Below, one piece after another: positions 80-13,098 of a DNA stretch of 22,483 bases (the stretch's first letter is position 1; every line of letters starts with the position of its first letter). Location of the stretch: NCBI GenBank assembly GCA_947246355.1, contig CAMXQX010000014.1, positions 1-22,483 of the forward strand, written 5' to 3'. The translations under genes and the position numbers were made by a program. The notes under the pieces were generated by a model that saw nothing but the letters and a program-made list of their open reading frames with translations, did no database searches and had not been told where the DNA came from. Origin of the DNA: an uncultured Bacillota bacterium (GTDB lineage: Bacteria; Bacillota_I; Bacilli_A; RF39; UBA660).

Positions 80-1360
80 TTATTGAATAAACCTTGCTTT
101 TTTTCTCTTTAACTTTAAAGATAAAGCAATAATAATTGCTAGAAAAAATGCTATAACTACACTTACACCAATATAAATGTATTTACTATTTCCATCAAGA
201 AAAAATGTACTTTCTTTTTCTGCTTTCATAAATCTTTGTAATGTTTTTTCTTTCGTATCGTAAGAATACCAGCCCTTCTCGTCGGTTTCTATGTTGAGCC
301 CATACACCAAATAAAATTCACTATTTGGCCTCTTATATGCCTCTACTTTTTGGCTCCCAATTTCAATTTCTTCCTTTTCATACCCATTTGGAATTTCCTC
401 ACTTACCATATACACCAAATGAACAATACCACTTTCCATTTCATGATAAGGGGTATAATCCACTTTCGTTTCATCTTTATAAGAGTCAAATTTATATAAA
501 TTAACATTTCCTTCTTTATTTCGAAGTCCTACCAGTACATAATCAATTTTATCAATACGGTAAGCTTCTACTTCTTGGTCTTCTATATTTAATTTAATGG
601 TTTCGTGTTCTAAAGAGATTTCTGGCAAGTCTTCTGCTTTTTTTACCATTGTATATTCACTATTCTCTAATTTGACTTGAATGGGTTTGCTATCTACTAA
701 AATAGTAATAGAATATGTCTTTTTCTCTCCATTTTCAGCTGTGACTACAATATCAAATTTATTCTCGCCTTCCTTGATTTCTTTTTCCCCGTCTCCACTC
801 ATCACTGCCTTATCATGACTTTTTGTTGCATTGATTTTTATTTTTTCTGTACCATAAGGAACCGTCATAGAATAATTTGTCTTACTTTTATCAAAAGAAA
901 TTTCATATCCTTCTATACTTAGAGAAGATAAATCATTGTCTCCTGATTTTTTAGGTGTATTTGTATTATTTGTAGATGGTTTTTGTGTATTTGTTTGTTT
1001 TTGATTCACTGTAATCGTAACAGAATTACACCCTACATTTACAATTTCTCCATTACCATTAGATGCTCCTGGACTAAGCGCTACAGATACAACAGTTGTT
1101 CCTACTTCTGTTGCTCGTAAAGTAGCACTTACGGTATTGTTCTCAAGCCATGTATCAGTAAGTCCTGTAATACTTCCCTTGGATGCATTGATAGATGAAA
1201 TATTGGCTGTTAAATCACTTGCTTTGACATAAATGGTGACATTCTCTCCAACTGTAACATTTCTGGAAGAGGCACTGACACTACAACTGGAAGCTTCTAC
1301 CTTCCCTGTAAACATTAAAAATAAAGTGAATGTTAAAACACATAGACAACCCTTTTTCAT
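80..1360 (-). CDS. Membrane-anchored cell-surface protein with cadherin-like beta-sandwich domain
   Basis: ORF track gives 80..1456. I trimmed the start to ATG 1360 (MKKGCLCVLTF...), which has AAGGAGG 5 nt upstream and lies 10 nt after the upstream stop. It has a signal peptide (...FTGKVEASS). The segment DLSSLSIEGYEISFDKSKTNYSMTVPYGTEKIKINAT...KKTYSITI fits the cadherin-like beta-sandwich (PF12733-type) pattern. The C-terminus has a hydrophobic helix (IYIGVSVVIAFFLAIIIALSL) followed by KLKRKK. Confidence 0.75.
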   Translation of the reverse strand: MKKGCLCVLTFTLFLMFTGKVEASSCSVSASSRNVTVGENVTIYVKASDLTANISSINASKGSITGLTDTWLENNTVSATLRATEVGTTVVSVALSPGASNGNGEIVNVGCNSVTITVNQKQTNTQKPSTNNTNTPKKSGDNDLSSLSIEGYEISFDKSKTNYSMTVPYGTEKIKINATKSHDKAVMSGDGEKEIKEGENKFDIVVTAENGEKKTYSITILVDSKPIQVKLENSEYTMVKKAEDLPEISLEHETIKLNIEDQEVEAYRIDKIDYVLVGLRNKEGNVNLYKFDSYKDETKVDYTPYHEMESGIVHLVYMVSEEIPNGYEKEEIEIGSQKVEAYKRPNSEFYLVYGLNIETDEKGWYSYDTKEKTLQRFMKAEKESTFFLDGNSKYIYIGVSVVIAFFLAIIIALSLKLKRKKARFIQ

Positions 1361-1370
1361 AATATCCTCC

Positions 1371-2903
1371 TTATTGACTAATTTGACTTGTTCCTTTGAT
1401 ATGGTTTTTGATTTGTACATAATCTGTTGGCCATATATTGGAATCGTGATTGACATCCGCTGCTTCTTTGTAAGCTCCTTCTAATTTAAGCGTTCCCTTG
1501 ATTGCATTTTTAACTTGTACATAGTCTGTTGCCCAAATATTGGAGTCTCCATTCACATCTCCATAAATGACTACTTGGTACGTTACTTTTTGACTTCCTT
1601 TTTCTAAAGTGACTGTATCTCCTGTTGCTACTTTATCGGTAGTATTATTTGCATTTTTCTCTATCGTTACCGTTAATCCTTCCATATTGCCTTTTAGATT
1701 GTTACTAAATTCTTCATGACTCATTCCTATCTTTATACCACTAATATAATTGTCTTTTATTTTATAATTGGTAATTTTAATCTCTTCCTCCACTGGTGTA
1801 CTTGGTACACAACTTGTATTTTGGGTATTAGGGGCCCCCTCATAAATAGGAATATAGAAGACATAAGCATAATTTTTAAAATCAGCAAATGTTTGGTAAG
1901 ACTTATAGGTTGTTGTAGACTCGGATACGGGAGCTTGTATATTTTGCATATACTGATGTCCACCAAGGTTTGGTCCATAAGGGTCCCATTTTTGAAGATA
2001 CAAACTCATCTGTCCTTTTACATTGTATGTATCATTCACACCAACATACTTCTTATATACAAATTTAGCGCCTTCCACAATGGAAATATAGGGGCTTGTC
2101 CAGTTATTTCCTTCACAGACTAGTTTACCAGTTTTCTCATCCTTTAATATCCCCTTGGCACAAGCAAGCCCATTTTCAATTACTTTTTGGTCTGTTGTTC
2201 CACTCGCTTGAATATTAAAATAATTATAATAACCTTCATAACCTGCATAAGTTCCTGAAATCAAAGAAGAAGTACCTTTCCTTCCTTGTTCTTGAATTAA
2301 ACGAGAAGCCAACATATAAGGACTCACATTGTTTTTCTCTCCTGCCTCTAATAATACTTCTGCATACGTTTTTTCACTTCCTGGGCAGATTTTATTGGCC
2401 ATAAAAGAGCCTTTTAAAATCGATTCTACCCCTTCTTTGGTATGGTAAGATTTAGAATACAAAGATTCAAACATAAAAACATTCGTTTCATTTAAAAAAT
2501 TATAAGGGTTCATATAGTAAGTAATCGCTTCTTCTGATGCATGGTACCAACTGCATACATTGTTAGAACCCTTTTGCGCACAAATATCTGTTTTATAAGA
2601 GTCTTTCGCTGATGCAGAAATTAAACTTTTATTACTGAATTGTACTTTAAACATATCATCCCATGCGACAGGAATTTCTTTGTATTTTTTCCAATCAAAG
2701 AAATGGGTTTGTGCGACAAAAACAGCATTCGGATAAATCGTATGTAATTCTTTTATTTTTTCTTGGTAATCACATGGAAACTTTTTAAGTTCTTCTTCAT
2801 AACCCCCCACATAAGAATCATTATAAATCGCTTTTACAGAAGCAGTACTTATAAAAAGGGCAAAGAAGAAAAAGAATATTTTTTGCGTATGTAGTCGTTT
2901 CAT
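1371..2903 (-). CDS. Secreted peptidoglycan hydrolase-like protein (GH73 / LytD-type N-acetylglucosaminidase domain) with C-terminal dockerin-type repeat pair
   Basis: Start trimmed to ATG 2903 (MKRLHTQK...), with GGAGG 8 nt upstream, followed by a signal peptide. Glucosaminidase-family motifs are present: YYMNPYNFLNETNVFMFESL, NVSPYMLASRLIQEQG, YNYFNIQASG and SLYLQKWDP. The C-terminus carries two 22-residue Ca-binding dockerin-like segments, DVNGDSNIWATDYVQVKNAIKG and DVNHDSNIWPTDYVQIKNHIKG. Confidence 0.7.
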   Translation of the reverse strand: MKRLHTQKIFFFFFALFISTASVKAIYNDSYVGGYEEELKKFPCDYQEKIKELHTIYPNAVFVAQTHFFDWKKYKEIPVAWDDMFKVQFSNKSLISASAKDSYKTDICAQKGSNNVCSWYHASEEAITYYMNPYNFLNETNVFMFESLYSKSYHTKEGVESILKGSFMANKICPGSEKTYAEVLLEAGEKNNVSPYMLASRLIQEQGRKGTSSLISGTYAGYEGYYNYFNIQASGTTDQKVIENGLACAKGILKDEKTGKLVCEGNNWTSPYISIVEGAKFVYKKYVGVNDTYNVKGQMSLYLQKWDPYGPNLGGHQYMQNIQAPVSESTTTYKSYQTFADFKNYAYVFYIPIYEGAPNTQNTSCVPSTPVEEEIKITNYKIKDNYISGIKIGMSHEEFSNNLKGNMEGLTVTIEKNANNTTDKVATGDTVTLEKGSQKVTYQVVIYGDVNGDSNIWATDYVQVKNAIKGTLKLEGAYKEAADVNHDSNIWPTDYVQIKNHIKGTSQISQ

Positions 2904-2929
2904 ATCTACCGCCTCCATTATGTAACAAC

Positions 2930-3273: not shown

Positions 3274-5502
3274 TCACTCTTTTATTTTTTTATACCTATT
3301 TTGTAATTTTTCTTTTAAAGATGTTTTTCTTTCTCTTTCCACTGCGCTAGAAACCGCGTAGACAAAAGCCTCTTTTTCTCCTACTAAAATTAATTTCTTT
3401 TTGGCTCTTGTTATCCCAGTATAAATCAGTTTTCGATGAAGCATACGAGAATAACGCATACAAATAGGCATAAGGACCAATTCAAATTCACTGCCTTGAC
3501 TTTTATGAATGGATAAAATAAATCCATGTTTTATCGTATCCATATCTTTCGGCAAATAACGAATTCGATTTCCATCAAAATTCACATAAATTTCATAGGA
3601 GGATGGATTCTCTGATTTTTGAATAATTGTATCAATAAACCCAATGTCCCCGTTAAAAACATTTTCTTCTGGGCGGTTTACTAATTGTAATATTTTATCA
3701 TTTTCACGGTAAATGACTTCCCCTACACTTATTTCTTTTTTTTCTAGGGACTTCGGATTAAATATTTCTTGCAACTCTTTATTTAAGCAATCAATTCCAA
3801 CAACACCTGCATACATCGGTGCAAGCAACGTCGTTCTCGATTCATCATACCCTTTTTCTCTTAACTGTATACATAATTTTTTTATATTAGAAACAATCGT
3901 ATCTTGGGAACACTCTAAAAACAAATAATCGTCTTTCTTATCTGTAAAATTTGTACTTAAATCATTATTTTTAATCTCCTCTGCCAAAACAGGAATATAC
4001 GATTCTTCACTTTGTCTATACAATAAATCCAAATAAATTGTATCAATAAGATCGCTTTCAATCAAATCTTTAAGTACATTACCAGGTGCTACACTAGGAA
4101 GTTGATGAACATCCCCAACCAGCACAAGCTTTATATTACGGTTAAGTCCTTTAAGTAAAGAGGCCATCAGTTCCGTATCCAACATACTTACCTCATCAAC
4201 AATCACCAAATGGACATTCGATTTATTTTCTTCGTTGACCATAAACGTATTTGCATCTTTATCCCATCTCAGAAAACGATGAATAGTGGACGCAGGAAGA
4301 AGAGTTGCCTCGCTCATCCGCTTACTTGCCCTTCCCGTAGGAGCAAGTAAAGCAAGCGATTCAGATAGAAAATCCCCCTCTTTTTGATAAACCTTAGCAT
4401 ACAATTGTACAATAGCTTTAATAATGGTTGTCTTGCCTGTTCCTGGCCCTCCTGTAATAATGGTAATATGGTTTTTTAAAGCTGACGCAATAGCTTGTTT
4501 TTGTTTATTATTATAGGCAATGGATAATTCCTTTTGCAATTCTTCTATTCTTTTATCTAAGTCTTTCATTTTATCTGTTTTTTGATTCAGTAAATCTTCC
4601 ACTCGATCAATAATATACTCTTCACTTTCATAGATTTTTTTTGGATAATAACGATTTTCTTCAAAAACGATTTTATCTTCTAAAATCAAAGCATCCAATA
4701 AATTTAGAAAAGATTCTATTTCTAGGTCCATATGCAAATACGCCTCTGTTCCTTTTTTTATCTCCTCCAAATTTAAATAAGTATCCCCACTTGCAAAAAG
4801 AAGTTGGTGCATTTGATAAACTATACAAGCCTTTACTCTTTCCTCATTTTCATCTTCAATATTCATCATTGCTCTTAACTTATCTACTTTCAAAAAGGTA
4901 ATTTCCTCCACATCCTCTATGACTTGGTAGAAATGATTTTGAATGGTAGCGATCGTTTTCGATTTATAAACATTATAAATGCTGAGTGCATCGCGCATCC
5001 CAAATCCTAAATCAGTGAGATAAACAATGACTTGGTGTGACTGGGAGTATTCTTCCAAAATACGCTTGATTTGCTGTTTTCTTTTTTCTGTTAATTTAGG
5101 AACCAAATCCAAGCAGGCAGGTTCTGTTAAAATACGATCAATACAATCTTTGCCCAATGTATCTACAATTCTTTGTGCGAGTTTTTCTCCTACTCCTGGA
5201 AACAAGTCACTCGATAAAAAAAGTATAAGACCATCCTTTGTATTCGGCATAAGCAACTCTGATTCTGTGACCGCAAACTGAATCCCATATTTAGGGTGAT
5301 CTACAAGATTGCCATAAAACAAATAATTTTCTTTTTCTTTTAATTCAGGAAAGTATCCAGTAAAAGTAATATTTTGGTCTAAAAAATCTTCTATCTCTTC
5401 GCTATTTGTTTCTTTTACTTGCATAATACCTATATTATATCCTTTATCAGAAGAGAATATACTTCTTATAAATTTTCCTTTTATATACTCTTTCATAGCC
5501 AT
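3274..5502 (-). CDS. recD2: RecD2-type SF1B ATP-dependent DNA helicase
   Basis: About 740 aa. Walker A is ITGGPGTGKTT and Walker B is LVIVDEVSMLD, with VLVGDVHQLPSV and SIHKSQGSEF...TRAKKKLILVG helicase motifs. The N-terminal OB/HhH-like region is typical of RecD2. The track start 5505 is a GTG; I chose ATG 5502, and ATG 5496 is also possible. Confidence 0.9.
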   Translation of the reverse strand: MAMKEYIKGKFIRSIFSSDKGYNIGIMQVKETNSEEIEDFLDQNITFTGYFPELKEKENYLFYGNLVDHPKYGIQFAVTESELLMPNTKDGLILFLSSDLFPGVGEKLAQRIVDTLGKDCIDRILTEPACLDLVPKLTEKRKQQIKRILEEYSQSHQVIVYLTDLGFGMRDALSIYNVYKSKTIATIQNHFYQVIEDVEEITFLKVDKLRAMMNIEDENEERVKACIVYQMHQLLFASGDTYLNLEEIKKGTEAYLHMDLEIESFLNLLDALILEDKIVFEENRYYPKKIYESEEYIIDRVEDLLNQKTDKMKDLDKRIEELQKELSIAYNNKQKQAIASALKNHITIITGGPGTGKTTIIKAIVQLYAKVYQKEGDFLSESLALLAPTGRASKRMSEATLLPASTIHRFLRWDKDANTFMVNEENKSNVHLVIVDEVSMLDTELMASLLKGLNRNIKLVLVGDVHQLPSVAPGNVLKDLIESDLIDTIYLDLLYRQSEESYIPVLAEEIKNNDLSTNFTDKKDDYLFLECSQDTIVSNIKKLCIQLREKGYDESRTTLLAPMYAGVVGIDCLNKELQEIFNPKSLEKKEISVGEVIYRENDKILQLVNRPEENVFNGDIGFIDTIIQKSENPSSYEIYVNFDGNRIRYLPKDMDTIKHGFILSIHKSQGSEFELVLMPICMRYSRMLHRKLIYTGITRAKKKLILVGEKEAFVYAVSSAVERERKTSLKEKLQNRYKKIKE

Positions 5503-5592: not shown

Positions 5593-7266
5593 TTAACTCG
5601 TGCTAACAAATACAGGTTTCCAATTTTTTGTACAAATTTGATTATCTGCATTGTCCACTGCACAAATTTGGTATAAAAATATAAATTCACCTGTTGGCGT
5701 AAATACCCAGTCTTCTTCACAAGTAAAAATATTTTCTTTACTCTTTTTGCAAATATATTCTTTGGTTTTTTCACATGTTCCACGGATGCATTTTTTTCCA
5801 AGCATGGTAACTTTACTGACTCCTGCTGTATCAACTACATTAGAAATAATTTCAATATGATGACGCGTATTCCTATCTAAAATTGGCTCTTTTTTTACAA
5901 AGACATCTTGTATAGAAATGGAGGGAGCTGTTTTATCGATCTTAATGATTTTCGTAAGCACTGGGCTGATATTCCCAACAAAATCAATCGCTCTAAAATA
6001 CCGTTTGCTTATTCCTTCTTTCTGTATATGGTACAATTCATTGGCAGAATGATAAGAAAAGTCAAACCAAGTTTTATTGTCCTTTGAGATTTGGTATTTC
6101 CATACCCCACTTCCATAATCCATCGAACCAACAGGATTTGGATTATCTTCCCTATTTGATAAAAATACTTCTTGTTTTGTCCATGTATCGTCTATGTACT
6201 TTGTTCCATCTTGAAGCAGAGCATTCATCGTCGGAACTGTTGGTGCTTTGTTGTCAATTTTTATTTCTGTACTTACACTTGTACTACAATTGGAAAAAAC
6301 ATCACAAGCTCTAATATATAGACGCTGATTTATATCTTCTTTAAAAGGAGGCGTTATGAAAAAACTTTCTTTTATACTAGGATACGCGAACCAATTTTTT
6401 TGATCATAACTATATTCAAAGTGATGCATACCACTACCATCGTCTTGCGCTTCTAATGTTAAACTGATACTTCCTTTCGTCCATTTTCCATTGGATGGAT
6501 TTTTAACTTGTAGCTTTGTTGGCGGCGTTTTATCAATTTTAAATAAGGTTTGTCTCGCCAATGTACTAAATTTTTTTCCATCAAAAGCGATAGCCAAAAA
6601 GGTGGTTTCTTCCTTCGTATCTTGTGCATAAGTAAAGACAACATCTCTATCTATTTTATACCACAAATTGGCAGTTATCTCTTTTGTACTAGTGCCCTTT
6701 ACACAATTTTTAGGCTTTACTGCACTTCCACAGGTCTCCTTTAAAAATACATCACTACTTCCATTTTTTTCTGCTTTAATATAGTAACTGCTATTTTGGT
6801 TATTTTCGCTTGGAAGTTGGACAGAAACAACCTGTTCTTTTAAATATCCTTTTTGCGGCTTGGCTTCGCTTAATAATGTAGGAGGAAGAAGTACAGCCTC
6901 TTCCTTTGTTGGTTTATCTTCCACTTTATCCTTGTTTTCTTGTTGTTCATCATTTTTTACTTTTTCGCTAGAAATTTTGTTGATTTCTGTAATAACGTTT
7001 TCATCTTGTTTTTGAACTCCCGTTTCATTCTCTTGTTTGAAGTCCGTTGTTTGCTTATTATCTTGCCCTTTTTTTACCAATTCTTTTTGCTTTTTATGAA
7101 TATAGGAATTGAAGGAAGAAAAAGAAAAAGAGGCACTATTTTTTAAACTTTCTCTATCTATTGTTTTGGTAAAGTAAAAAAAAGAAGGAATGGCCAAAAA
7201 TATAACCACACTAAAAAAGGTAATTTTCTTTAAAAGAACTTTCCACGTAAATCTCTTTCTATCCAT
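5593..7266 (-). CDS. Membrane-anchored modular surface protein of unknown function
   Basis: ATG 7266 has AGGAGG 7 nt upstream. There is an N-terminal TM helix (ITFFSVVIFLAIPSFFYF) and a low-complexity K/E/Q linker. Three modules of about 100 aa follow, each ending with a KID(K/N)xxP(T/S) boundary (KIDKTPPT, KIDNKAPT, KIDKTAPS), as seen between Ig-like domains. The tail is Cys-rich. I recognise no family. Confidence 0.6.
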   Translation of the reverse strand: MDRKRFTWKVLLKKITFFSVVIFLAIPSFFYFTKTIDRESLKNSASFSFSSFNSYIHKKQKELVKKGQDNKQTTDFKQENETGVQKQDENVITEINKISSEKVKNDEQQENKDKVEDKPTKEEAVLLPPTLLSEAKPQKGYLKEQVVSVQLPSENNQNSSYYIKAEKNGSSDVFLKETCGSAVKPKNCVKGTSTKEITANLWYKIDRDVVFTYAQDTKEETTFLAIAFDGKKFSTLARQTLFKIDKTPPTKLQVKNPSNGKWTKGSISLTLEAQDDGSGMHHFEYSYDQKNWFAYPSIKESFFITPPFKEDINQRLYIRACDVFSNCSTSVSTEIKIDNKAPTVPTMNALLQDGTKYIDDTWTKQEVFLSNREDNPNPVGSMDYGSGVWKYQISKDNKTWFDFSYHSANELYHIQKEGISKRYFRAIDFVGNISPVLTKIIKIDKTAPSISIQDVFVKKEPILDRNTRHHIEIISNVVDTAGVSKVTMLGKKCIRGTCEKTKEYICKKSKENIFTCEEDWVFTPTGEFIFLYQICAVDNADNQICTKNWKPVFVSTS

Positions 7267-7359: not shown

Positions 7360-7385
7360 ATAATAAAAAGGAGTAAATTCTCCTT
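7360..7385 (-). terminator. Intrinsic terminator after secG
   Basis: Minus-strand RNA reads AAGGAG-AAUUUA-CUCCUU (6-bp stem) followed by UUUAUUAUC. It begins 21 nt after the secG stop. Confidence 0.5.
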
Positions 7386-7406: not shown

Positions 7407-7616
7407 TTAAAATCCCTGTATAAAACAAATAATAAAATAAATACTTCCAAGAACAAAGGTTGCTCTTGTAATGAAAAGTTCTCCCCCACGTTCTTTTCGA
7501 TTTTTAAAAAGTTCACTATTTGCCCCTGTAAAAATATCTCCTTCTGCCACTTTTCCTGCTTGTAATAAAACAATGGCTATTAATAAAACACATACAACGA
7601 TAAGTACTGTCTCCAT
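7407..7616 (-). CDS. secG: Preprotein translocase subunit SecG
   Basis: 69 aa: METVLIVVCVLLIAIVLLQAGK...LFKNRKERGGE...TFVLGSIYFIICF. It has two TM helices and the VLLQ-GK signature of SecG. The track start 7625 is a GTG inside the SD; ATG 7616 has GAGGTG 6 nt upstream. Confidence 0.88.
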   Translation of the reverse strand: METVLIVVCVLLIAIVLLQAGKVAEGDIFTGANSELFKNRKERGGELFITRATFVLGSIYFIICFIQGF

Positions 7617-7635
7617 CTTATCCACCTCGCTTATT

Positions 7636-7692: not shown

Positions 7693-9114
7693 TTATCTCG
7701 TTTTTCCCCTACTATTTAATTTTTCAAGTTGTTCTTGATTGATATAAATTACCCTTCCTCCTTTGGGACTGATTTTCGTATCACCAAATACAATCCATAA
7801 AACGTCTACTTCTTTACTGGGCATAGTAGAACAACCATCTGTAAAAATAATTTTATTTTCTACTCGATTTGTAAAAGCATTCACTGCTACATTAAAATCT
7901 GTTCCACCACCTCCATAGAAAGATAAATTATCAATGTCTGCTTCATTTTTTATTTCTGTAAAACCATAAAACATAGTATCAAAACACCCTACTTTTACCT
8001 TTGAAGTTTGTAAAATATTTTTACATTCTCTTAAAAAATTGCGAAGCAACACCTCATCAATGGAACCACTCGTATCTAGGACAATCTCTGTTTCTGGTCT
8101 TGGTATTTCTTCTAAATAGGTGGTGACAATTCCATCCTCAATCTCCACATTTTCATAAGACCAATCCACATCATACTTTACCGCTTCTTTGAGTAACATT
8201 CGCCAATCCAAAAGAGGTGTGGATGTTCCAATATTGGCTATGGTTCTTACATCACTGTTTGTACTATCACCATGCCCAAGGGCCTCTTTTGCTAGTTCAT
8301 TTTGTAACTCCTCTAATTGTCTTTTTCTCTCTATCCTGTTTTGTTTAAATACTTCTCTCTCTCCTACTTGTACTCGATTTTGCATCTCCTCTTGTTTTTT
8401 CTTTTTACTTTCTAATTCTTGCGTCTTTTCTGTTTTCTCTTCCTCGTGTAATGCTTGCCTCTCTTTTTTTCTAGAAAACATTCGTTTCATCTTATCAAAT
8501 AAATTATCTTGGTTTTCTATTTTTTCTTCCTCTAAACCATTGGTGGCATTTCCCTCTCCTTTTTCTTGTTCCTCTCTTTGTTTTTTTAAAGTTGCCTGCT
8601 TCCACATAGAATGCGTATCGTGCCCCACATCATGGTATTTTTCTGTGCTTTCTTCATCGCCCTTTTGTGAACTCTCCTTTTTCGTATTCCCTTTTTGCTC
8701 TTTTTTCGTATCACTTTGTTGTTCTTTCTTTTCTTCTAGTAGTTTTTGATAGAATCCTTCTGCGTCATAAGCGATGGCCTCGGGAATATCGACTCCTCCT
8801 TTTACTAAAGGGAGTCCATCCTGTTTTAATAAAGCATTAATCACTGCGTCGGTGGCTATATTCCATAATTCAGAATCTTTTCCTTCACTTCTAAATATAT
8901 GATGAAATGCAATATAACAAATCTCATGGGCAAGGATAAATACCTGCTCCTCCCGTGACAGAGAGGACAAAAAGAGAGGATTATAGTATATGATTTCTCC
9001 ATCGGTTCCTGCTGTTTCTACGGAAGCCTCACCCACAAATTGGGTATGCGCTACTATACTACCAAATAAAGGATACTTCACTAAAACTCTATTTATAATG
9101 GTCTCAATATGCAT
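7693..9114 (-). CDS. DUF2201-type protein: N-terminal putative metallopeptidase domain, long charged linker, C-terminal VWA domain
   Basis: Start trimmed to ATG 9114 (MHIETIINRV...), with AGGAG 5 nt upstream and 2 nt after the upstream stop. The N-terminal region YPLFGSIVAHTQF...TAGTDGEIIYYNPLFL...FILAHEICYIAFHHIFR...WNIATDAVIN fits the COG3864/PF13203 pattern. About 150 aa of E/K-rich linker follow. The C-terminus has the VWA MIDAS-like motif VLDTSGSI, plus GGGGTDF and IIFTDG. Confidence 0.8.
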   Translation of the reverse strand: MHIETIINRVLVKYPLFGSIVAHTQFVGEASVETAGTDGEIIYYNPLFLSSLSREEQVFILAHEICYIAFHHIFRSEGKDSELWNIATDAVINALLKQDGLPLVKGGVDIPEAIAYDAEGFYQKLLEEKKEQQSDTKKEQKGNTKKESSQKGDEESTEKYHDVGHDTHSMWKQATLKKQREEQEKGEGNATNGLEEEKIENQDNLFDKMKRMFSRKKERQALHEEEKTEKTQELESKKKKQEEMQNRVQVGEREVFKQNRIERKRQLEELQNELAKEALGHGDSTNSDVRTIANIGTSTPLLDWRMLLKEAVKYDVDWSYENVEIEDGIVTTYLEEIPRPETEIVLDTSGSIDEVLLRNFLRECKNILQTSKVKVGCFDTMFYGFTEIKNEADIDNLSFYGGGGTDFNVAVNAFTNRVENKIIFTDGCSTMPSKEVDVLWIVFGDTKISPKGGRVIYINQEQLEKLNSRGKTR

Positions 9115-9116
9115 AG

Positions 9117-9524
9117 TTACTCCTGCACGTGGGCACATAAGGAATATATTTCTTCATTGATTTTATGCCTATTTAAATCAGAATAAGTAACTATAGGGAA
9201 ACAATTTGTAGGTAAATCGAAGGTACTCACTTTTTTATACTTCAATATCTCAACAAACTTTGTTTGTTCTTCAAGTGCAATTTCATTTATATTTTCAATG
9301 AGTAAAATAACAGAACCCTTTTTACTTTTTTCTATTAATTCTTTATACCATGTTGGTGGACAAAATTCGACATTCTCATAATGTCCATTTAGCTCAAGTC
9401 GATCTATATTTGCACTTATTGCTACCACATTCGTAAAAACAGTCGCAGGAAGATTTTGAATTAATAAGGGAGAAATTCCACACTGTAAGTAGCTTTCTAA
9501 TAAATTAAATCTATCTTTATTCAT
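9117..9524 (-). CDS. Degenerate AAA+ core paralogue (no P-loop) of the upstream ATPase
   Basis: ATG 9524 overlaps the upstream stop as ATGA, with AAGGAGG 9 nt upstream. The 135-aa product aligns by eye with residues about 230-400 of the 9521..11266 product. CPPTWYKELIEKSKKGSVILLIENINE matches VPPTWYIKLKEKCEKEPNKIHIVFFDELTN, DLPTNCFPIV matches RLPANARIVA, and CAHV matches FAHV. The Walker A position reads QNLPATVF and Walker B DE is replaced by EN. Confidence 0.7.
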   Translation of the reverse strand: MNKDRFNLLESYLQCGISPLLIQNLPATVFTNVVAISANIDRLELNGHYENVEFCPPTWYKELIEKSKKGSVILLIENINEIALEEQTKFVEILKYKKVSTFDLPTNCFPIVTYSDLNRHKINEEIYSLCAHVQE

Positions 9525-11266
9525 TTTCTAATTCCTCCTTGGGTATTTTCCTCAGACATTTGTATTTCAAGTAAATACTCTAACCTAGACGTGTCTCCAT
9601 GAACCCACATTGATTCAAAGACAGCTCTTGGTTCTGCACCTAATTGTTTCATAAAATCTCTAACTACCTCAAAATGCTCTTCATCTACAGAAGACAAACC
9701 AGCAGCTGTTGTGAATTTTTGTGCAACATTCATTTCTAAATCCTTCTCTGTGTAATTGTGCTGCAGTACATCCTCAATACGTATAACTTGAAGACTGGAA
9801 AATGCAACAAAGTCTCTTGTTAACTCTTCTCCAATGAGGGCTCGAAGCATTTCTTGCTTTTTCGTTTTATATAATACTTTGGATGCCATCTCCCATTTTC
9901 TTGGGTCGGCATTTGGTTTTTCTCCTGTATAAGGTGTTCTTAATACATCTTGTCCACTATAAGACTTGTAAGCCACATAAGCATAAATGGATGGATGAAT
10001 TTTTGGTTCTACCTTTTCTTCTTGATAGTCCAATCTTTCATAATTTTCTCTTGGTGTAATAGCCCATTTTAACCAGCTATCAACAGTCGTTTGAATATAT
10101 ACATGCGCAAAACGATTAAATAATGGTTCTGCCATTTGATTGGCAGCAAGAGAATCATTCAAATCATTTCCAGCTGCCACAATTCTTGCATTGGCTGGTA
10201 GCCTCCATTTCCCATCCACTTCTCCGTCCAAGACAATGTTAAATGCCATTCCTTGAATACTTGGTAGTGCATTGGTGAGTTCATCAAAGAATACAATATG
10301 GATTTTGTTAGGCTCTTTTTCGCATTTTTCCTTTAGTTTTATGTACCACGTTGGTGGTACATCCATCATTTCTCCCGTTGCAGCATTATATACACTTTTT
10401 CCATTTAAACTGTTTGGTGTTGCATTTCTCATGTATATAATTTCACAGTCTGGATCCAATTGTTTTACTCTTGCGGATTTTCCCTCACTGGATCTACCAT
10501 GTAAAAATACAGAAACATTGCTTTCGATGGCCCCTTTAATGATATCCTCCTCAGAGACACAATTAAAATCAAAATCAAAATCATAAGGATTTTTCCTTTT
10601 TATTCCGCTATCTATATTATTTATTGGCTCTGTATTTTGTAAAATCCTATTAGATACAATCTCTTTAGCAAAACAAGTATCTATAAATTGCTTTATATCA
10701 GTTCTCTCAAAATCCCCTTGGTAATTGTTATTATTCTGAAATTTTACACCTGAGAAAATCAGTTTCTTAGAAAGCGCTATATTGGATACTCTATCTACTA
10801 GCCATGTGATAGGCTCAACCAAAACCCAATAAGCTTTTCCCTCTTCAATTTTTCTTCCATCGGATAGAGTCTGTCCACTACAATTTCCATCCGCTACAAA
10901 ACGAATACACTTCTTTCCATTATATTCGTATTCCATATGTTCTCTTGCCACAAACGAACGACTATACTCTTGATAATTTACAGAGTCCGTTGTATACTTT
11001 TTTCCTGTTCTATTTATCCTATCACTTTGAAATGCACGTTCAAAATCTGCTTCCTCACTGGCACGCAAAATAGACTGTGGATATTCACCATAGTCGACTT
11101 CTATTATTTGACCCCTGCCTCTCACTTCGTTCGAGGAGATGTTTTGGATTAAAGAGTAAGGTAAAGCTGGGCGTGCCCCAACATACCGTAAATTAACATT
11201 GTATAAGTAACCATTCCCATCATTGTCAACAGCGCGCGCGAGCACAAACGGGGCACAAGAGCGCAA
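9521..11266 (-). CDS. MoxR/AAA_5-class AAA+ ATPase with lectin-like N-terminal domain; 5' end uncertain
   Basis: Walker A is FLHGRSSEGKS, Walker B is IHIVFFDELT and sensor-1 is ARIVAAGN, with a helical lid/C-terminal domain. Residues about 55-215 (IIEVDYGEYPQ...YWVLVEPITWLVD...LSKKLIFSGVKF...DIKQFIDTCFAKE) resemble a Firmicutes lectin/FGE-like extracellular-type domain. The track start 11266 is a TTG with no SD. The first in-frame ATG is at 10936, and an SD-like GAGAGGCAGGGG lies at 11123-11112. Confidence 0.75.
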   Translation of the reverse strand: MRSCAPFVLARAVDNDGNGYLYNVNLRYVGARPALPYSLIQNISSNEVRGRGQIIEVDYGEYPQSILRASEEADFERAFQSDRINRTGKKYTTDSVNYQEYSRSFVAREHMEYEYNGKKCIRFVADGNCSGQTLSDGRKIEEGKAYWVLVEPITWLVDRVSNIALSKKLIFSGVKFQNNNNYQGDFERTDIKQFIDTCFAKEIVSNRILQNTEPINNIDSGIKRKNPYDFDFDFNCVSEEDIIKGAIESNVSVFLHGRSSEGKSARVKQLDPDCEIIYMRNATPNSLNGKSVYNAATGEMMDVPPTWYIKLKEKCEKEPNKIHIVFFDELTNALPSIQGMAFNIVLDGEVDGKWRLPANARIVAAGNDLNDSLAANQMAEPLFNRFAHVYIQTTVDSWLKWAITPRENYERLDYQEEKVEPKIHPSIYAYVAYKSYSGQDVLRTPYTGEKPNADPRKWEMASKVLYKTKKQEMLRALIGEELTRDFVAFSSLQVIRIEDVLQHNYTEKDLEMNVAQKFTTAAGLSSVDEEHFEVVRDFMKQLGAEPRAVFESMWVHGDTSRLEYLLEIQMSEENTQGGIRK

Positions 11267-11293
11267 ACACGCAAAAAATAAATTTTCTTCTTA
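11165..11293 (-). other. GC-rich, NNY-codon-rich segment resembling a DGR variable/template repeat (in frame with the AAA+ gene)
   Basis: The frame opens after TAA 11293-11291 and encodes EENLFFACLRSCAPFVLARAVDNDGNGYLYNVNLRYVGARPAL. Region 11231-11272 has 28/42 G+C, including the alternating run GCGCGCGCG. In 11227-11180, 12 of 16 codons are NNY (N/D/G/Y/V). A 14-nt G/C-rich block, GGGGCACGCCCAGC, follows at 11179-11166. There is no ATG or SD. Confidence 0.4.
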
Positions 11294-11318
11294 ATTAAAG
11301 GCTTTTCAACCTAAAATC

Positions 11319-11903
11319 CTATTTTTTCATTTTCCATCTTGCATCATCACTCTTTTTCCAAGCAACGATTAGATTAATTGCCTCTGCAAGTTGCATAGAA
11401 ATCTGTTTGTATTGCTTTTTCAAAATACAGTTGGAGTTGAAAGCAAGCAAGGCCATATACCCTAAAAGTTTTAAGTTAACAATTGCTTCTTTTTGATACT
11501 CTTCTCTTTTGGATTTGTTGTTAGAAGACTCCATTCGAATAAAATTAGCTTTTAATAAATACTCTATCGTATCTAGACAATAATTTTGCATCCGATTGAC
11601 GAAGACACCTCTAAATTTTTTAGGGGATTTTTCTGTTACTGCAATCACATAAGCTTTTAATTTTTTAGTAACGGTAATTACCATTAAATCATTAGCATTG
11701 AAAGGAATTTGGTCTATCACCTTTCTATCCTTGTCTTCTTCTATGAGTCCTATTTTTACTTTTGTTTCATCAAACTTTTCATCCTTAGCCATGGCAAGGC
11801 CTTTCTTTGTTGCAAGAACTTCTTCTATATTGTTTGCTCTTTGTGTTACAATTTCTATTTTTTTGGGGATTTTTAAATGATTCGATCTACTGACTTGATA
11901 CAT
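11319..11903 (-). CDS. Avd-like / 23S-rRNA-IVS-type four-helix-bundle protein with about 80-aa N-terminal extension
   Basis: ATG 11903 lies 16 nt after the fmt stop and is preceded by GAGGTAAGGA. An alternative start is MAKDEK at residue 38. The C-terminal 115 aa (KLKAYVIAVTEKSPKKFRGVFVNRMQNYCLDTIEYLLKAN...KEAIVNLKLLGYMALLAF...KKQYKQISMQLAEAINLIVAWKK) follow the helix pattern and the P-[KR]-K ... A-[NG] ... W landmarks I recall for Avd / PF05635-family proteins. Confidence 0.5.
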   Translation of the reverse strand: MYQVSRSNHLKIPKKIEIVTQRANNIEEVLATKKGLAMAKDEKFDETKVKIGLIEEDKDRKVIDQIPFNANDLMVITVTKKLKAYVIAVTEKSPKKFRGVFVNRMQNYCLDTIEYLLKANFIRMESSNNKSKREEYQKEAIVNLKLLGYMALLAFNSNCILKKQYKQISMQLAEAINLIVAWKKSDDARWKMKK

Positions 11904-11919
11904 TCCTTACCTCTATCAT

Positions 11920-12897
11920 CTATTCAAAAATATCTCCTAGCAAATCTTCTTTGTTTTGAATGCCATTCAAAAAATCACTTGCTTTCCTCTTTGGCTTTCC
12001 TTCCATTTGTATTTCGGTTAAAATAATTTCGCCATTTCCGCATTTCACACCTATTCCGTCCGAATATAAATTACAAATTGTCCCATCAATTTTATCAGGA
12101 TAATAGGCATCCCCTATTCTCACCTTCCAAATCTTCATTCGCCTTCCTCTTAAAATAGCATACGCTCCAGGATAACTATTTAACCCTCGAACTTGATTAT
12201 GAATAGCATATTTTGTTTTACTAAAATCAATTTTTTCTTCTTCTTTTTTGATTGTAAACGCGAATGTTGCCTCCTCATGATTTTGAGGGATGCGAGGAGC
12301 AGTTTTATTAATAATACTTGGAAGAGTCTCTAAAAGTAAATCACGACCAAGTATTTTTAACTTATCATGCACCATAGATGCTGTATCCTCTTCTCCAATG
12401 GCAATTTCTTTTTGTGCAATCATATCTCCCTCATCCAATTTCGAATTCATATGCATAATGGTAATCCCAGTTTTCGTCTCTCCATTCATCACAACTCTAT
12501 GAATAGGAGCCCCTCCTCTATATTTAGGAAGCAAGGAAGCATGAACATTAATACAACCATATTCTGGTAAAAATAATAGTTCATTTGGAACCAAATTTCC
12601 ATAGGCACACGTGATAATCAAGGTTGGTTTTAATGCATAAATTTCATCGAGTGCTTCACTTAATTTTTCTGGTTGTAAAACTAAAATTGTATGGTCATTC
12701 GCACACTGTTTGACAGGGGAAAACGTTACTTGTCCATTTCTACCATTGACCCTGTCTGGTTGGGTAATGACTGCTCTTACATCATAATTTTCAATGAGTC
12801 CTTCTAAGACAGGTACAGCAAATGCAGGCGTACCCATAAATAAAATACGTACCTTCTTCTCTATTTTTATTTGTTCAATATTCAGTTCTGTATCCAT
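11920..12897 (-). CDS. fmt: Methionyl-tRNA formyltransferase
   Basis: Motifs present: RILFMGTPAFAVPVLEGL, INVHASLLPKYRGGAPIHR and the C-terminal Fmt domain. Start trimmed to ATG 12897 (MDTELN...), with GAAAGGA 9 nt upstream. ATG 12933 lacks an SD. Confidence 0.92.
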   Translation of the reverse strand: MDTELNIEQIKIEKKVRILFMGTPAFAVPVLEGLIENYDVRAVITQPDRVNGRNGQVTFSPVKQCANDHTILVLQPEKLSEALDEIYALKPTLIITCAYGNLVPNELLFLPEYGCINVHASLLPKYRGGAPIHRVVMNGETKTGITIMHMNSKLDEGDMIAQKEIAIGEEDTASMVHDKLKILGRDLLLETLPSIINKTAPRIPQNHEEATFAFTIKKEEEKIDFSKTKYAIHNQVRGLNSYPGAYAILRGRRMKIWKVRIGDAYYPDKIDGTICNLYSDGIGVKCGNGEIILTEIQMEGKPKRKASDFLNGIQNKEDLLGDIFE

Positions 12898-13098
12898 ATT
12901 TCTTGATCCTTTCTTTTTACATTGTATTTTCATTTTCTAGCAATCTTTATACTACACTTATTTTAGATAAAATTCAAAATAATATTATAAAACTAGGATA
13001 TTTGTGCAGATGGCAGCCACATTTGTTCATTTTCTCCTCATTTTAATTTATTGTTTTTTAAATTTATATTTTCTATTATTTTTTTATCTAGAATTATT

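What the first reader, a model, noticed from the sequence alone, without database searches (positions are those of the whole stretch)
7693..11903. Four-gene, translationally coupled cassette (Avd-like, lectin-AAA+, pseudo-AAA+, metallopeptidase-VWA) embedded in a housekeeping gene array
Seen: four same-strand genes are packed between fmt and secG with almost no spacers. The first starts 16 nt after the fmt stop. The AAA+ stop overlaps the next start as ATGA (9521-9524). Only 2 nt separate the pseudo-AAA+ stop from the VWA-gene ATG, and I see no internal terminator. Established: MoxR-class AAA+ ATPases are classically paired with VWA proteins (RavA-ViaA, NorQ-NorD, CbbQ-CbbO). The COG0714/COG3864 (DUF2201 peptidase-VWA) pair is widespread but has no known function. 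Comparative genomics has proposed vWA-MoxR modules as cores of NTP-dependent conflict systems. Unusual here: (1) a lectin-like putative ligand-binding domain is fused to the ATPase; (2) a separately encoded P-loop-less copy of the ATPase core is present; (3) an Avd-like four-helix protein sits in front; (4) a DGR-repeat-like segment sits at the junction. Inference: this may be a sensor (lectin domain), motor (AAA+ plus pseudo-subunit) and effector/adaptor (peptidase-VWA) system, possibly a defence or surveillance module whose sensor is or was diversified. I do not recognise this gene combination as a described system.
Basis: partly seen in the sequence, partly recalled or inferred. Interest (0 to 1): 0.85.

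Follow-up and report, generated by a model that had tools for sequence, protein, structure and literature searches.

The report
Decayed retroelement-diversified ATPase–VWA gene cassette
These four genes are the remnant of a cassette in which a mutagenic retroelement (DGR) rewrites the binding tip of an ATPase that is paired with a protease-VWA protein; this copy has lost the reverse transcriptase and the front of the ATPase gene, but it points to a large family in gut Bacilli that I did not find described.

Summary
The four tightly packed minus-strand genes are real. They are an Avd homologue (11319-11903), an AAA+ ATPase ORF (9521-11266), a P-loop-less fragment of the same ATPase core (9117-9524) and a DUF2201 peptidase-VWA protein (7693-9114).

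Relatives show the intact layout: avd, TR, reverse transcriptase, target (VR about 70 codons in), small protein, DUF2201. At least 15 of these loci carry adenine-only TR/VR mismatches.

In the window, a TR/VR chimera (11167-11243) joins the avd-side spacer directly to the target. The RT and about 70 N-terminal codons are gone, and no credible start codon remains. Three alleles of this stretch in the species differ only at TR-adenine positions (11 of 11, twice).

The peptidase motif is damaged three different ways among strains: HEICY in the window, HAICH in another allele, and an in-frame stop in a third.

So this copy is a decaying, RT-less relic of a DGR-diversified AAA+/VWA-peptidase system. 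The three-gene core is complete in 65 of 68 informative genome loci, in varied housekeeping contexts. A defence role is inferred, not shown: there are no PADLOC hits and no defence-island enrichment. The lectin fold was not confirmed by Foldseek; the only support is a weak DUF6273 link.

Verdict: a new variant of a known kind.

The parts
11319..11903 (-). Avd-like accessory protein (194 aa). The four-helix-bundle part is residues ~75-185, preceded by a family-specific N-terminal extension of about 75 aa.
   Evidence: phrog_3206 'Avd protein of DGR' E=3.8e-15; NF033474 E=6.7e-8; PF22296 E=1.2e-4. Orthologues sit directly upstream of TR and RT in L012, L100 and 15 genome loci.
11293..11318 (-). 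Conserved GAAA-tetraloop hairpin immediately 3' of the avd stop codon. It is presumably part of the DGR template RNA.
   Evidence: RNAalifold on 13 loci predicts 9 pairs. Three stem pairs show compensatory changes: GC/AU in 6 and in 4 sequences, UA/CG in 4.
11227..11278 (-). Adenine-free 52-nt G/C/T tract, the spacer upstream of TR. Its 3' part is read as the first codons of the 581-aa ORF.
   Evidence: 0 A in 52 nt. It is homologous to the avd-to-TR spacer of intact loci L012 and L100, not to target coding sequence. The tract is also A-poor in the relatives.
11167..11243 (-). TR/VR chimeric repeat. The 5' flank is TR-type, the variable stretch is 11185-11227, and the 3' end is the G/C-rich GGGGCACGCCCAG.
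   Evidence: Alignments A2 and A6. The window differs from allele L005 at 11 sites and allele L095 differs from L005 at 11 sites. All 22 are A in L005, which nearly equals the TR of L100.
11158..11166 (-). VR-type 3' boundary CTTTACCTT. TRs of intact relatives read ATTCACTTT here, so this behaves like an IMH versus IMH* distinction.
11118..11136 (-). Small hairpin CCTC-N11-GAGG about 30 nt 3' of the VR, inside coding sequence. It is a candidate homing cis-element.
   Evidence: RNAalifold on 15 loci: the UA pair is replaced by CG in 4 sequences, and a CG pair by UA in 1.
9521..11266 (-). 5'-truncated DGR target gene. It contains the remnant of the VR-bearing N-terminal module (DUF6273-related) fused to an AAA+ ATPase (core ~9599-10546; Walker A 10475-10498; Walker B 10280-10294) and a C-terminal helical region.
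   Evidence: Full-length homologues are ~645 aa with ~70 extra N-terminal residues. phrog_1297 E=7e-41. AAA_5 is found in 45 of 65 diverse family members. The ORF has no ATG or SD at its 5' end.
9117..9524 (-). Small protein (135 aa): a degenerate AAA+ core fragment without Walker A. Its start overlaps the AAA+ stop as ATGA.
   Evidence: BLASTP to AAA+ residues 304-389, E=1e-5. DNA repeat D11 covers the shared PPTWY motif. It is present downstream of the ATPase in 65 of 68 informative loci.
7693..9114 (-). DUF2201_N zincin-like peptidase plus VWA-like domain (473 aa from ATG 9114). The active-site motif is degenerate, HEICY at 8914-8928. MIDAS-like DTSGS lies at 8062-8076.
   Evidence: PF13203 E=1.3e-31 and PF09967 E=2e-12. 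The family consensus is HE[VI]CH. Other strain alleles read HAICH or carry an in-frame stop.
11920..12933 (-). fmt, the upstream housekeeping flank.
   Evidence: PF00551 and PF02911.
7407..7625 (-). secG, the downstream housekeeping flank, followed by a terminator-like site at 7368-7385.
   Evidence: PF03840.

Best explanation
**What it is.** The cassette is a chromosomal, RT-less relic of a diversity-generating retroelement (DGR) cassette.

**Intact form (shown in relatives).** The order is avd, GAAA hairpin, A-poor spacer, TR, reverse transcriptase, target gene, small protein, DUF2201 gene. The target has a VR of about 30 codons roughly 70 codons from its start. That VR lies inside a DUF6273-related N-terminal module fused to an AAA_5/MoxR-related ATPase. 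The small protein is a P-loop-less paralogue of the ATPase core. The DUF2201 protein combines a zincin-like peptidase with a VWA domain.

**Window copy (shown).** A fusion between TR and VR has removed the RT, the Sp-type region between TR and RT, and the first ~70 codons of the target. What remains is avd, spacer, chimeric repeat and truncated target. The peptidase motif is HEICY.

**How the intact system probably works (inferred).**
- Avd and RT copy TR RNA with adenine-specific errors into the VR.
- This creates variants of a cytoplasmic binding surface on the ATPase.
- Ligand binding is coupled through the AAA+ ring, possibly a mixed ring with the inactive paralogue, to the VWA-peptidase partner.
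- This resembles what has been proposed for MoxR-vWA conflict systems.
- In-frame TAA or TGA codons in the TR would make unmutated copies null alleles, acting as an on/off switch.

**Status of this copy (inferred).** It is probably non-functional or only partly functional, and it is decaying.
For: **Intact architecture in relatives.**
- L012 reads Mob_Pre, HTH, 163 aa, avd, TR (3493-3576), RVT_1 reverse transcriptase, 644-aa target with VR (5214-5297), 133 aa, DUF2201. All 14 of its TR/VR mismatches are at TR adenines.
- At least 15 further genome loci show TR/VR pairs whose mismatches are all or nearly all at TR adenines.
- An RT lies immediately upstream of the target in 20 of 51 informative loci. 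Avd without an RT occurs in 0 of 51.

**Deletion in the window.**
- The 5' side of the window junction aligns to the avd-3'/TR-upstream spacer of L012 and L100. The 3' side aligns to VR-downstream target sequence.
- The ORF lacks the family's first ~70 residues.
- The same junction is present in at least 9 independent assemblies.
- TR and VR share only about 17 nt on the 5' side. That is too short for a k=31 assembler to cross (inference).

**DGR signature at the junction.** There are three alleles. All 11 window-versus-L005 differences and all 11 L095-versus-L005 differences fall on L005 adenines (chance about 1.6e-4 each). L005 nearly equals the TR of the intact sister lineage L100.

**Decay.**
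- The peptidase motif is HEICY in the window and HAICH in L003 and L008.
- L089 keeps HEICH but carries an in-frame stop, and a serine-recombinase element cuts its ATPase gene to 457 aa.
- The sister lineage L093 has an intact HEICH.

**Component identities.**

**Mobility.** The three-gene core is complete in 65 of 68 informative loci but sits in unrelated contexts. A few loci carry a Mob relaxase or an IS605 TnpB.
Against: - Avd, the small protein and the DUF2201 gene are still full-length ORFs in the window.
- dN/dS between the window and strain L089 is 0.12-0.21. However, dS there is about 4 times that of fmt and priA, which indicates imported alleles rather than constraint acting in this locus.
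- The three A-site alleles could mean that the chimeric repeat is still being rewritten by an RT encoded elsewhere in the genome. In that case the locus would not be dead.
- Allele L005 rests on a single 5-kb contig.
- The sensor/defence mechanism is untested: no PADLOC hit, no defence-island context, and no lectin fold match.
- The AAA+ part of the structure model was poor.
Confidence: 0.8

Rival explanations
1. The locus is alive. A second DGR in the same genome supplies RT and a matching TR in trans and keeps rewriting the chimeric repeat. A truncated ATPase made from an internal start (GTG at 11125 or a downstream ATG) still works with the small protein and the VWA protein.
For: Three alleles in one species differ only at TR-adenine positions while sharing the same deletion. 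The VR-type 3' end and the downstream hairpin are retained. Avd is intact and 99-100% conserved. Some genomes hold more than one cassette; Coprobacillus sp. CAG:605 has L023 and L087.
Against: No RT was seen in 22 kb of window or on any contig of this species that I fetched. Two of the three alleles carry in-frame stops, TAA and TAG. About 70 N-terminal residues of a compact, confidently modelled domain are missing. There are three independent lesions of the peptidase. Independent deletions or recombination with other cassette copies can also produce the alleles; mosaic SNP tracts are present.
Confidence: 0.17
2. The avd-to-target junction is an assembly artefact caused by collapse of the TR and VR repeats. 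The real genome carries an intact DGR.
For: TR and VR are near-repeats, and metagenome assemblers can mis-join repeats. Allele L005 (TR-like throughout) could be a chimera if its VR matched the TR over 31 nt or more at the 3' end.
Against: The same junction occurs in two NCBI MAGs and at least 7 Logan contigs from different runs. For the window and L095 alleles the join would have to fall within about 17 nt of shared sequence. No contig carrying this species' Avd continues into an RT.
Confidence: 0.03
3. At family level the three-gene core is not an immune sensor. It is a maintenance, replication or assembly module of mobile elements, like the phage N4 gp24/gp25 ATPase-vWFA pair. The DGR tunes binding to a host or element factor.
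For: The ATPase and the DUF2201 protein match phage families phrog_1297 (E=7e-41) and phrog_1314 (E=3.8e-60). There are 557 phage records with a homologous ATPase. LUZ7 encodes ATPase, a 153-aa protein and a DUF2201 homologue in a row. gp24 and gp25 are core N4-like genes of unknown function (PMC4193335). A Mob_Pre relaxase lies next to the cassette in L012, L018 and L077. No defence-island signal was found.
Against: Only 1 of 2.9 million viral contigs carries a close relative, and there it lies outside the phage genes. Most copies are chromosomal and have no relaxase. Hypervariable cytoplasmic binding domains on NTPases are otherwise linked to conflict systems (PMC7159879, PMC10907252).
Confidence: 0.2
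4. The cassette is core housekeeping chaperone machinery (a MoxR-VWA pair) that belongs to the fmt...secG operon.
For: It is tightly packed between housekeeping genes with no internal terminator.
Against: None of 76 related loci has fmt or secG nearby. Neighbours differ in every genome. The cassette carries DGR parts. It is being inactivated in several strains.
Confidence: 0.01

Closest known systems
Canonical DGRs (Bordetella phage BPP-1: mtd-avd-TR-brt)
   Same: An Avd homologue is present. TR lies between avd and RT in relatives. TR-to-VR differences are adenine-specific. The 3' end of the repeat is G/C-rich, with distinct TR-type and VR-type boundaries. A hairpin lies 3' of the VR.
   Different: The VR lies about 70 codons from the 5' end of a ~645-codon gene, so the cis-elements sit inside coding sequence. 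Roux et al. 2021 (PMC8144416) describe C-terminal VRs as near-universal. The target lies downstream of the RT. Avd has a ~75-aa N-terminal extension. Several TRs carry in-frame stop codons. The window copy has no RT and no separate TR.
Tentaclins: phage DGR targets with an N-terminal DUF6273 domain (PMC10743442)
   Same: [quoted passage not shown] PF19789 hits occur in homologues.
   Different: Tentaclins continue into Ig-like domains and are phage receptor-binding proteins. Here the module is fused to a cytoplasmic AAA+ ATPase and encoded in bacterial chromosomes or mobilisable elements.
DGR-associated vWA-MoxR 'VMAP ternary' conflict systems (Kaur et al. 2020, PMC7159879; Dore et al. 2024, PMC10907252)
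   Same: A MoxR-related AAA+ ATPase, a vWA protein, a third protein and a DGR-diversified binding domain. Proposed logic: sensor, then NTPase, then effector.
   Different: In those systems the variable FGS/CLec domain is C-terminal and fused to the vWA protein, and the third component is a VMAP. The hosts are mainly multicellular cyanobacteria, actinobacteria and gammaproteobacteria. Here the variable module is N-terminal on the ATPase, the third component is an inactive ATPase fragment, the vWA is fused to a DUF2201_N zincin, and the hosts are gut Bacilli with small genomes.
[quoted passage not shown]
   Same: A DGR-diversified binding domain on the same polypeptide as an AAA ATPase.
   Different: I could not read the primary paper. 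The citing paper describes the sensing region as C-terminal. No DUF2201-VWA partner is mentioned there.
COG0714/COG3864 pairs and phage N4 gp24/gp25 (ATPase plus vWFA)
   Same: Homologous ATPase and DUF2201 peptidase-VWA genes lie adjacent, with a small gene between them in LUZ7.
   Different: The phage and plasmid versions have no N-terminal variable module and no DGR. The LUZ7 middle protein shows no detectable similarity to the window's small protein.
RavA-ViaA, CbbQ-CbbO, NorQ-NorD
   Same: An AAA+ ATPase of the AAA_5/MoxR group paired with a VWA/MIDAS protein.
   Different: Similarity is only remote: CbbQ/NorQ E=0.09-1 in a profile search, and 24-26% identity to plasmid 'MoxR family ATPases'. 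The partners, substrates and fusions all differ.

Membership tests
Diversity-generating retroelement (DGR) | DGR-type reverse transcriptase encoded at the locus | tested here: not met
   No RVT_1 ORF in the 22.5-kb window. Orthologous cassettes have one between TR and the target.
Diversity-generating retroelement (DGR) | TR/VR repeat pair whose differences fall at TR adenines | tested here: inconclusive
   The window holds only one copy, a TR/VR chimera. Its three alleles differ only at adenines of the TR-like allele. Intact relatives meet the criterion fully.
Diversity-generating retroelement (DGR) | Avd accessory protein | tested here: met
   phrog_3206 E=3.8e-15, NF033474 E=6.7e-8, PF22296 E=1.2e-4 (the NF033474 and PF22296 scores are below their curated cut-offs). 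Orthologues are positioned directly before TR and RT.
Diversity-generating retroelement (DGR) | VR-specific 3' element (IMH) and nearby hairpin | tested here: inconclusive
   The boundary reads CTTTACC in VRs and ATTCAC in TRs. A small hairpin shows a few compensatory changes. Function was not tested.
C-type lectin / FGE-like DGR variable domain | CLec fold of the VR-bearing domain | tested here: inconclusive
MoxR / AAA_5-group AAA+ ATPases | Walker A, Walker B and a significant profile match | tested here: inconclusive
   Walker A GRSSEGKS and Walker B VFFDE are present. The window protein scores below threshold for PF07728 (E=0.068). Among 65 diverse family members, 45 match AAA_5 (best 5.4e-15), 13 match AAA_3 and 7 match bpMoxR. 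The LUZ7 homologue hits midasin at E=1.8e-4.
MoxR / AAA_5-group AAA+ ATPases | Helix-2 insert and pre-sensor-1 hairpin that define the clade | not testable with these tools
   The AAA+ part of the AF2 model has pLDDT mostly below 55. Foldseek hits to dynein, MCM, McrB and CHU_0153 are all non-significant.
DUF2201 / COG3864 peptidase-VWA | DUF2201_N and DUF2201 (VWA-like) domains | tested here: met
   PF13203 110.7 bits (cut-off 23.2); PF09967 47.7 bits (cut-off 26.4).
DUF2201 / COG3864 peptidase-VWA | Intact HExxH zinc-binding motif | tested here: not met
   The window has HEICY at 8914-8928. The family consensus is HE[VI]CH.
DUF2201 / COG3864 peptidase-VWA | MIDAS-type DxSxS motif in the VWA domain | tested here: met
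   DTSGS at 8062-8076, with downstream GGGGTD and FTDG. This is based on sequence only.
VMAP ternary vWA-MoxR conflict system (Kaur et al. 2020) | [quoted passage not shown] | tested here: not met
   The third gene is an ATPase-core fragment. The variable module is on the ATPase. The vWA is fused to DUF2201_N.
Known anti-phage defence systems (PADLOC-DB 2.0) | Match of any component to a catalogued defence protein | tested here: not met
   No hit at E<=0.1 for any of the four proteins.

The most novel reading that the evidence does not exclude
The family would be an undescribed class of DGR-programmed intracellular sensor, found in small-genome gut Bacilli. A hypervariable N-terminal module sits on an AAA+ ATPase that partners with an inactive paralogue and a VWA-zincin effector. 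Stop codons written into the TR would give a built-in on/off switch. In addition, the RT-less chimeric repeat in this species would either still be rewritten in trans, or would have arisen when long mutagenised cDNAs recombined with the avd-side spacer. The second route would be a DGR-driven self-deletion, a way in which DGRs destroy themselves.
Probability: 0.3. Interest if true: 0.8.

Novelty: new variant of a known kind. Interest (0 to 1): 0.6.

Why it matters
- **Size and tractability.** The family is large. There are 439 clusters at 50% identity with E<=1e-30 and 147 matching stretches in species-representative genomes. It is naturally hypervariable and cytoplasmic, and the cassette is compact (six genes, about 6 kb). 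This would let one test what DGR-diversified NTPase 'sensors' actually recognise. That question is raised but unresolved in Kaur et al. 2020 and Dore et al. 2024.
- **A functional handle on an orphan pair.** It gives a lead on the uncharacterised ATPase/DUF2201-VWA pair, which is a core gene pair of N4-like phages.
- **DGR mechanism.** It adds a cellular example to the rare cases of a VR near the 5' end of a gene. This bears on the idea that homing cis-elements must be intergenic (PMC8144416).
- **How DGRs die.** The window copy documents a TR/VR fusion followed by independent inactivation of the effector.

Tried and rejected
- **Circularly permuted lectin domain.** I first read the N-terminal 'GARPAL' segment this way. 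I dropped it once homologue alignment showed ~70 missing N-terminal residues and the junction aligned to the TR-upstream spacer.
- **Genetic code 4 (TGA=Trp).** I considered this to explain in-frame TGA in some VRs and TRs. I rejected it because TGA ends the ATPase gene (the ATGA overlap) and all housekeeping ORFs are intact under code 11.
- **Search for a separate TR and RT of this lineage.** An exact scan of genome contigs for the A-free tract gave 0 hits. A scan of metagenome contigs for the TR-like 40-mer gave 0 hits. No direct repeat of the segment exists in the window.
- **PDB sequence and profile searches.** The family, the N-module and a diverse-family profile gave nothing significant.
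- **Foldseek.** The full-length model gave no usable result because the ATPase part was poorly modelled. The confident N-module model found no significant match in PDB or BFVD.
- **Rfam.** No family matched.
- **PADLOC.** No hit on the four proteins. Among 140 neighbours there were only 3 cytosine methylases and a few generic mad3/mad8 hits.
- **Phage carriage.** One IMG/VR contig carries a relative, and the cassette there lies beyond the prophage tail genes, next to an ABC transporter.
- **dN/dS as a test of current function.** Uninformative, because cassette alleles are about 4 times more diverged than the flanks, i.e. mosaic.

Full report
**Observation.** The region 7693-11903 holds four minus-strand ORFs between fmt (11920-12933) and secG (7407-7625).
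There are 16 nt between the fmt stop and the first ATG. ATGA overlaps at 9521-9524. An ATG at 9114 lies 2 nt after the third gene's stop.
- Homologue N-termini show that 9114, not the 9138 ATG chosen by gene callers, is the real start of the last gene.
- No convincing minus-strand terminator lies inside the cassette. One follows secG.
- GC content is about 33% throughout, with no compositional break.

**Component identities.**
- *Gene 1 (194 aa).* It matches Avd profiles: phrog_3206 E=3.8e-15, NF033474 E=6.7e-8, PF22296 E=1.2e-4. The matches cover residues ~75-185, and the NF033474 and PF22296 scores are below their curated cut-offs.
- *Gene 4.* It passes Pfam thresholds for DUF2201_N (E=1.3e-31) and the VWA-like DUF2201 domain (E=2e-12).
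- *Gene 2.* It has an AAA+ core at residues ~241-556 (phrog_1297 E=7e-41), with Walker A GRSSEGKS and Walker B VFFDE. Its own Pfam AAA_5 score is sub-threshold (E=0.068). Among 65 diverse family members, 45 match AAA_5 (best 5.4e-15), 13 match AAA_3 and 7 match bpMoxR. A phage homologue hits midasin. PGAP names remote plasmid homologues 'MoxR family ATPase'.
- *Gene 3 (135 aa).* It aligns to residues 304-389 of gene 2 (BLASTP E=1e-5; DNA repeat D11) and has no P-loop. The 'pseudo-AAA+' call is therefore supported.
- None of the four proteins matches PADLOC.

**The junction is a DGR repeat.** Comparing the window with contigs that encode the identical small protein gave the first clue. One strain, L005, differs from the window at 11 sites within 11185-11227. 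At every one of them L005 has A and the window has G or T. In L005 the stretch reads as a run of AAY codons with an in-frame TAA.

**The intact layout in relatives.**
- Homologues of gene 2 number in the thousands. They are typically ~645 aa and carry ~70 N-terminal residues (MNNFTFLTDEQIFG...GWWWTKS) that the window ORF lacks. A hypervariable block lies just before a conserved GGARPALPYS.
- One homologue's contig, L012, shows the full arrangement: Mob_Pre relaxase, HTH, a 163-aa protein, a 195-aa Avd, TR, RVT_1 reverse transcriptase, the 644-aa target, a 133-aa protein and DUF2201.
- Its TR (3493-3576) and VR (5214-5297, about 205 nt into the target) differ at 14 positions, all TR adenines.
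- I fetched 76 loci from species-representative genomes, almost all gut Bacilli MAGs. The three-gene core is complete in 65 of 68 informative loci. An RT lies directly upstream in 20 of 51. At least 15 loci have TR/VR pairs whose mismatches are all or nearly all at TR adenines. Avd without an RT occurs in 0 of 51.

**What happened in the window.**
- Alignment of the junction with intact loci (A2; A6) shows two parts. Window 11244-11318 corresponds to the avd-3'/TR-upstream spacer. Sequence from the repeat's 3' end onward (CTTTACCTTACTC..) corresponds to VR-downstream target sequence. TRs end in ATTCAC instead.
- The single repeat in the window is therefore a TR(5')/VR(3') chimera. The RT, the region between TR and RT, and the target's first ~70 codons are deleted.
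- The 581-aa ORF has no ATG and no Shine-Dalgarno sequence. Its first codons translate an adenine-free 52-nt spacer.
- The closest lineage outside this species is intact. L100 has 161 aa, avd, TR and RT. L093 has a complete 5' target, although its VR holds a TGA.

**Three alleles of the chimeric repeat.**
- The species shows three alleles: window-type (window, L001-L004), L095-type (four runs) and L005-type (one contig).
- Both the window allele and the L095 allele differ from L005 at 11 sites. All 22 are L005 adenines (chance about 1.6e-4 each).
- L005 differs from the L100 TR at only 3 of 51 core positions.
- So either adenine mutagenesis acted on this segment after the deletion, with an RT supplied in trans, or the deletion arose more than once. 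One possible route is long mutagenised cDNAs recombining with the avd-side spacer. I cannot tell these apart with the data at hand.

**Why an assembly artefact is unlikely.** The same junction recurs in at least 9 independent assemblies. TR and VR share only about 17 nt 5' of the first variable site. L005 alone could be a chimera.

**Signs of decay.**
- The family's peptidase motif is HE[VI]CHIAF[ND]H. The window has HEICY. Strains L003 and L008 have HAICH.
- Strain L089 keeps HEICH but has an in-frame stop that splits the gene. It also carries a serine-recombinase element that cuts the ATPase gene to 457 aa.
- The intact sister lineage keeps HEICH.
- Three independent lesions in one species argue for relaxed selection, or selection against the peptidase, after loss of the DGR and the sensor's N-terminus.
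- dN/dS of 0.12-0.21 between strains is not informative. Cassette dS is about 4 times that of fmt and priA, and SNPs come in tracts (10301-10841 in L005; 8281-8924 in L003 and L008). This indicates allele import by recombination.

**The 'lectin' question.**
- AF2 models the N-terminal module confidently (pLDDT 92.6, pTM 0.90). Foldseek found nothing significant in PDB or BFVD and no C-type lectin protein among the top hits. Profile searches of PDB sequences also failed.
- I therefore call it a DUF6273-related variable module with an unconfirmed fold.
- Some family members carry LRR_5 or WG_beta_rep regions instead. This fits an exchangeable binding module.

**Context and mobility.**
- Outside this species the cassette is never next to fmt or secG.
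- The three nearest large genes on each side in about 25 loci are mostly housekeeping: FtsW, TsaD, SRP54, RuvB, tRNA synthetases, RNase J. Only 3 of 140 are cytosine methylases. So there is no defence-island signal.
- A few copies lie next to a Mob_Pre relaxase, or to IS605 TnpB and RhuM. Some genomes have tandem arrays of ATPase paralogues (L048, L069, L070).
- Only one IMG/VR contig holds a close relative, and there the cassette lies outside the phage genes.
- More distant ATPase/DUF2201 pairs without the variable module are common in phages: 557 records, and LUZ7 gp037-gp039. They correspond to the N4 gp24/gp25 core genes of unknown function (PMC4193335).

**Mechanism.**
- *Shown:* the DGR parts and adenine-specific diversification in relatives, the chimeric deletion in the window, and the domain identities.
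- *Inferred:* the intact target has no signal peptide or hydrophobic N-terminus, so it is a cytoplasmic protein whose variable surface binds an unknown ligand. The AAA+ ring, perhaps mixed with the inactive paralogue, transmits this to the VWA-zincin protein. This parallels what Kaur et al. (PMC7159879) and Dore et al. (PMC10907252) propose for DGR-linked MoxR-vWA systems.
- I put about 0.4 on a conflict or immune-sensor role for the family, and about 0.2 on a mobile-element maintenance role like the phage pair.
- For the window copy I put 0.8 on 'RT-less decaying relic'.

**Comparison with what is known.**
- DGR links to MoxR-vWA systems, and to CLec-AAA fusions in CPR bacteria, are published.
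- This architecture differs in several ways. The VR-bearing module is N-terminal on the ATPase. The third protein is an ATPase fragment, not a VMAP. The vWA is fused to DUF2201_N. The hosts are gut Bacilli.
- C-terminal VRs are described as near-universal (PMC8144416). N-terminal ones are called rare (PMC10743442).
- I found no paper in the searchable library that describes this cassette.
- Verdict: a new variant of a known kind. The window itself holds a fossil copy.

Noticed in passing
L005 2721-2800; L095 6706-6785; L100 ~1165-1240; L093 ~395-470; L017 and L025 TRs: Several TRs of this family carry an in-frame stop codon (TAA or TGA) at the codon that is Trp (TGG) in other members. An unmutated copy therefore gives a null allele, and adenine mutagenesis opens the frame (window TTA; L095 TAG; L093 TGA). 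This also explains the 530-537-aa 'short forms' in the protein database. It may act as a built-in on/off switch.
   Followed up: partly
window 11293-11318 (-): A GAAA-tetraloop hairpin directly after the avd stop codon is conserved across 13 loci, with compensatory changes in three stem pairs. It is followed by the conserved motif TTAATTAAGGAG. No Rfam family matches.
   Followed up: partly
window 11227-11278 (-): There is a 52-nt tract with no adenine in a 33% GC genome. The equivalent avd-to-TR spacer is A-poor (0-3 A in ~45 nt) in all relatives I looked at, although it has no homology to sequence upstream of the VR. The reason for the adenine avoidance is unexplained.
   Followed up: partly
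window 11118-11136 (-): A small hairpin CCTC-N11-GAGG lies about 30 nt 3' of the VR, inside the conserved ISSNxVRG coding stretch. It shows compensatory changes in 5 of 15 sequences and recalls the cruciform downstream of the BPP-1 VR.
   Followed up: partly
window 10301-10841 versus L005; window 8281-8924 versus L003 and L008: Strain differences come in dense tracts (46 and 25 differences) between stretches of 100% identity. The cassette's dS against L089 is about 4 times that of the flanking fmt and priA. Together these indicate a mosaic built by recombination with other cassette copies.
   Followed up: partly
L089 808-2544 and L095 6600-7523: In a strain with 95% identity, a large serine recombinase (Resolvase, Recombinase and Zn_ribbon domains) abuts the ATPase gene, which is cut to 457 aa. 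The fmt-avd side ends on a different contig from the same run. This suggests that a mobile element has inserted into the target gene.
   Followed up: partly
L048, L069, L070, L038, L032: Some genomes carry tandem arrays of two to six ATPase paralogues, with or without repeated small and DUF2201 genes. Many stand-alone ~300-aa copies of the N-terminal module also exist; several sit on one 75.7-kb contig.
   Followed up: no
L094 4507-5712 (Pseudomonas phage LUZ7 gp039); phrog_1314: The phage DUF2201 peptidase-VWA homologue is annotated 'HNH endonuclease', and so is its PHROG family. The alignment covers the HExxH region and the VWA domain, so the label looks like a misannotation.
   Followed up: partly
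L012 2214-2705 and homologues in L018, L054, L062, L063, L077, L080: A conserved ~163-aa protein of unknown function (weak DUF4298 match, E=0.007) precedes avd in many intact cassettes. It is absent from the window.
   Followed up: no
window 80-2918 (-), repeats 1390-1457 and 1492-1559: Two overlapping ORFs encode a dockerin-type protein and a cadherin-like protein. A 68-nt direct repeat (78% identity) spans their junction. Together with the 557-aa protein at 5593-7266, this suggests a cellulosome-like surface apparatus in the host.
   Followed up: no
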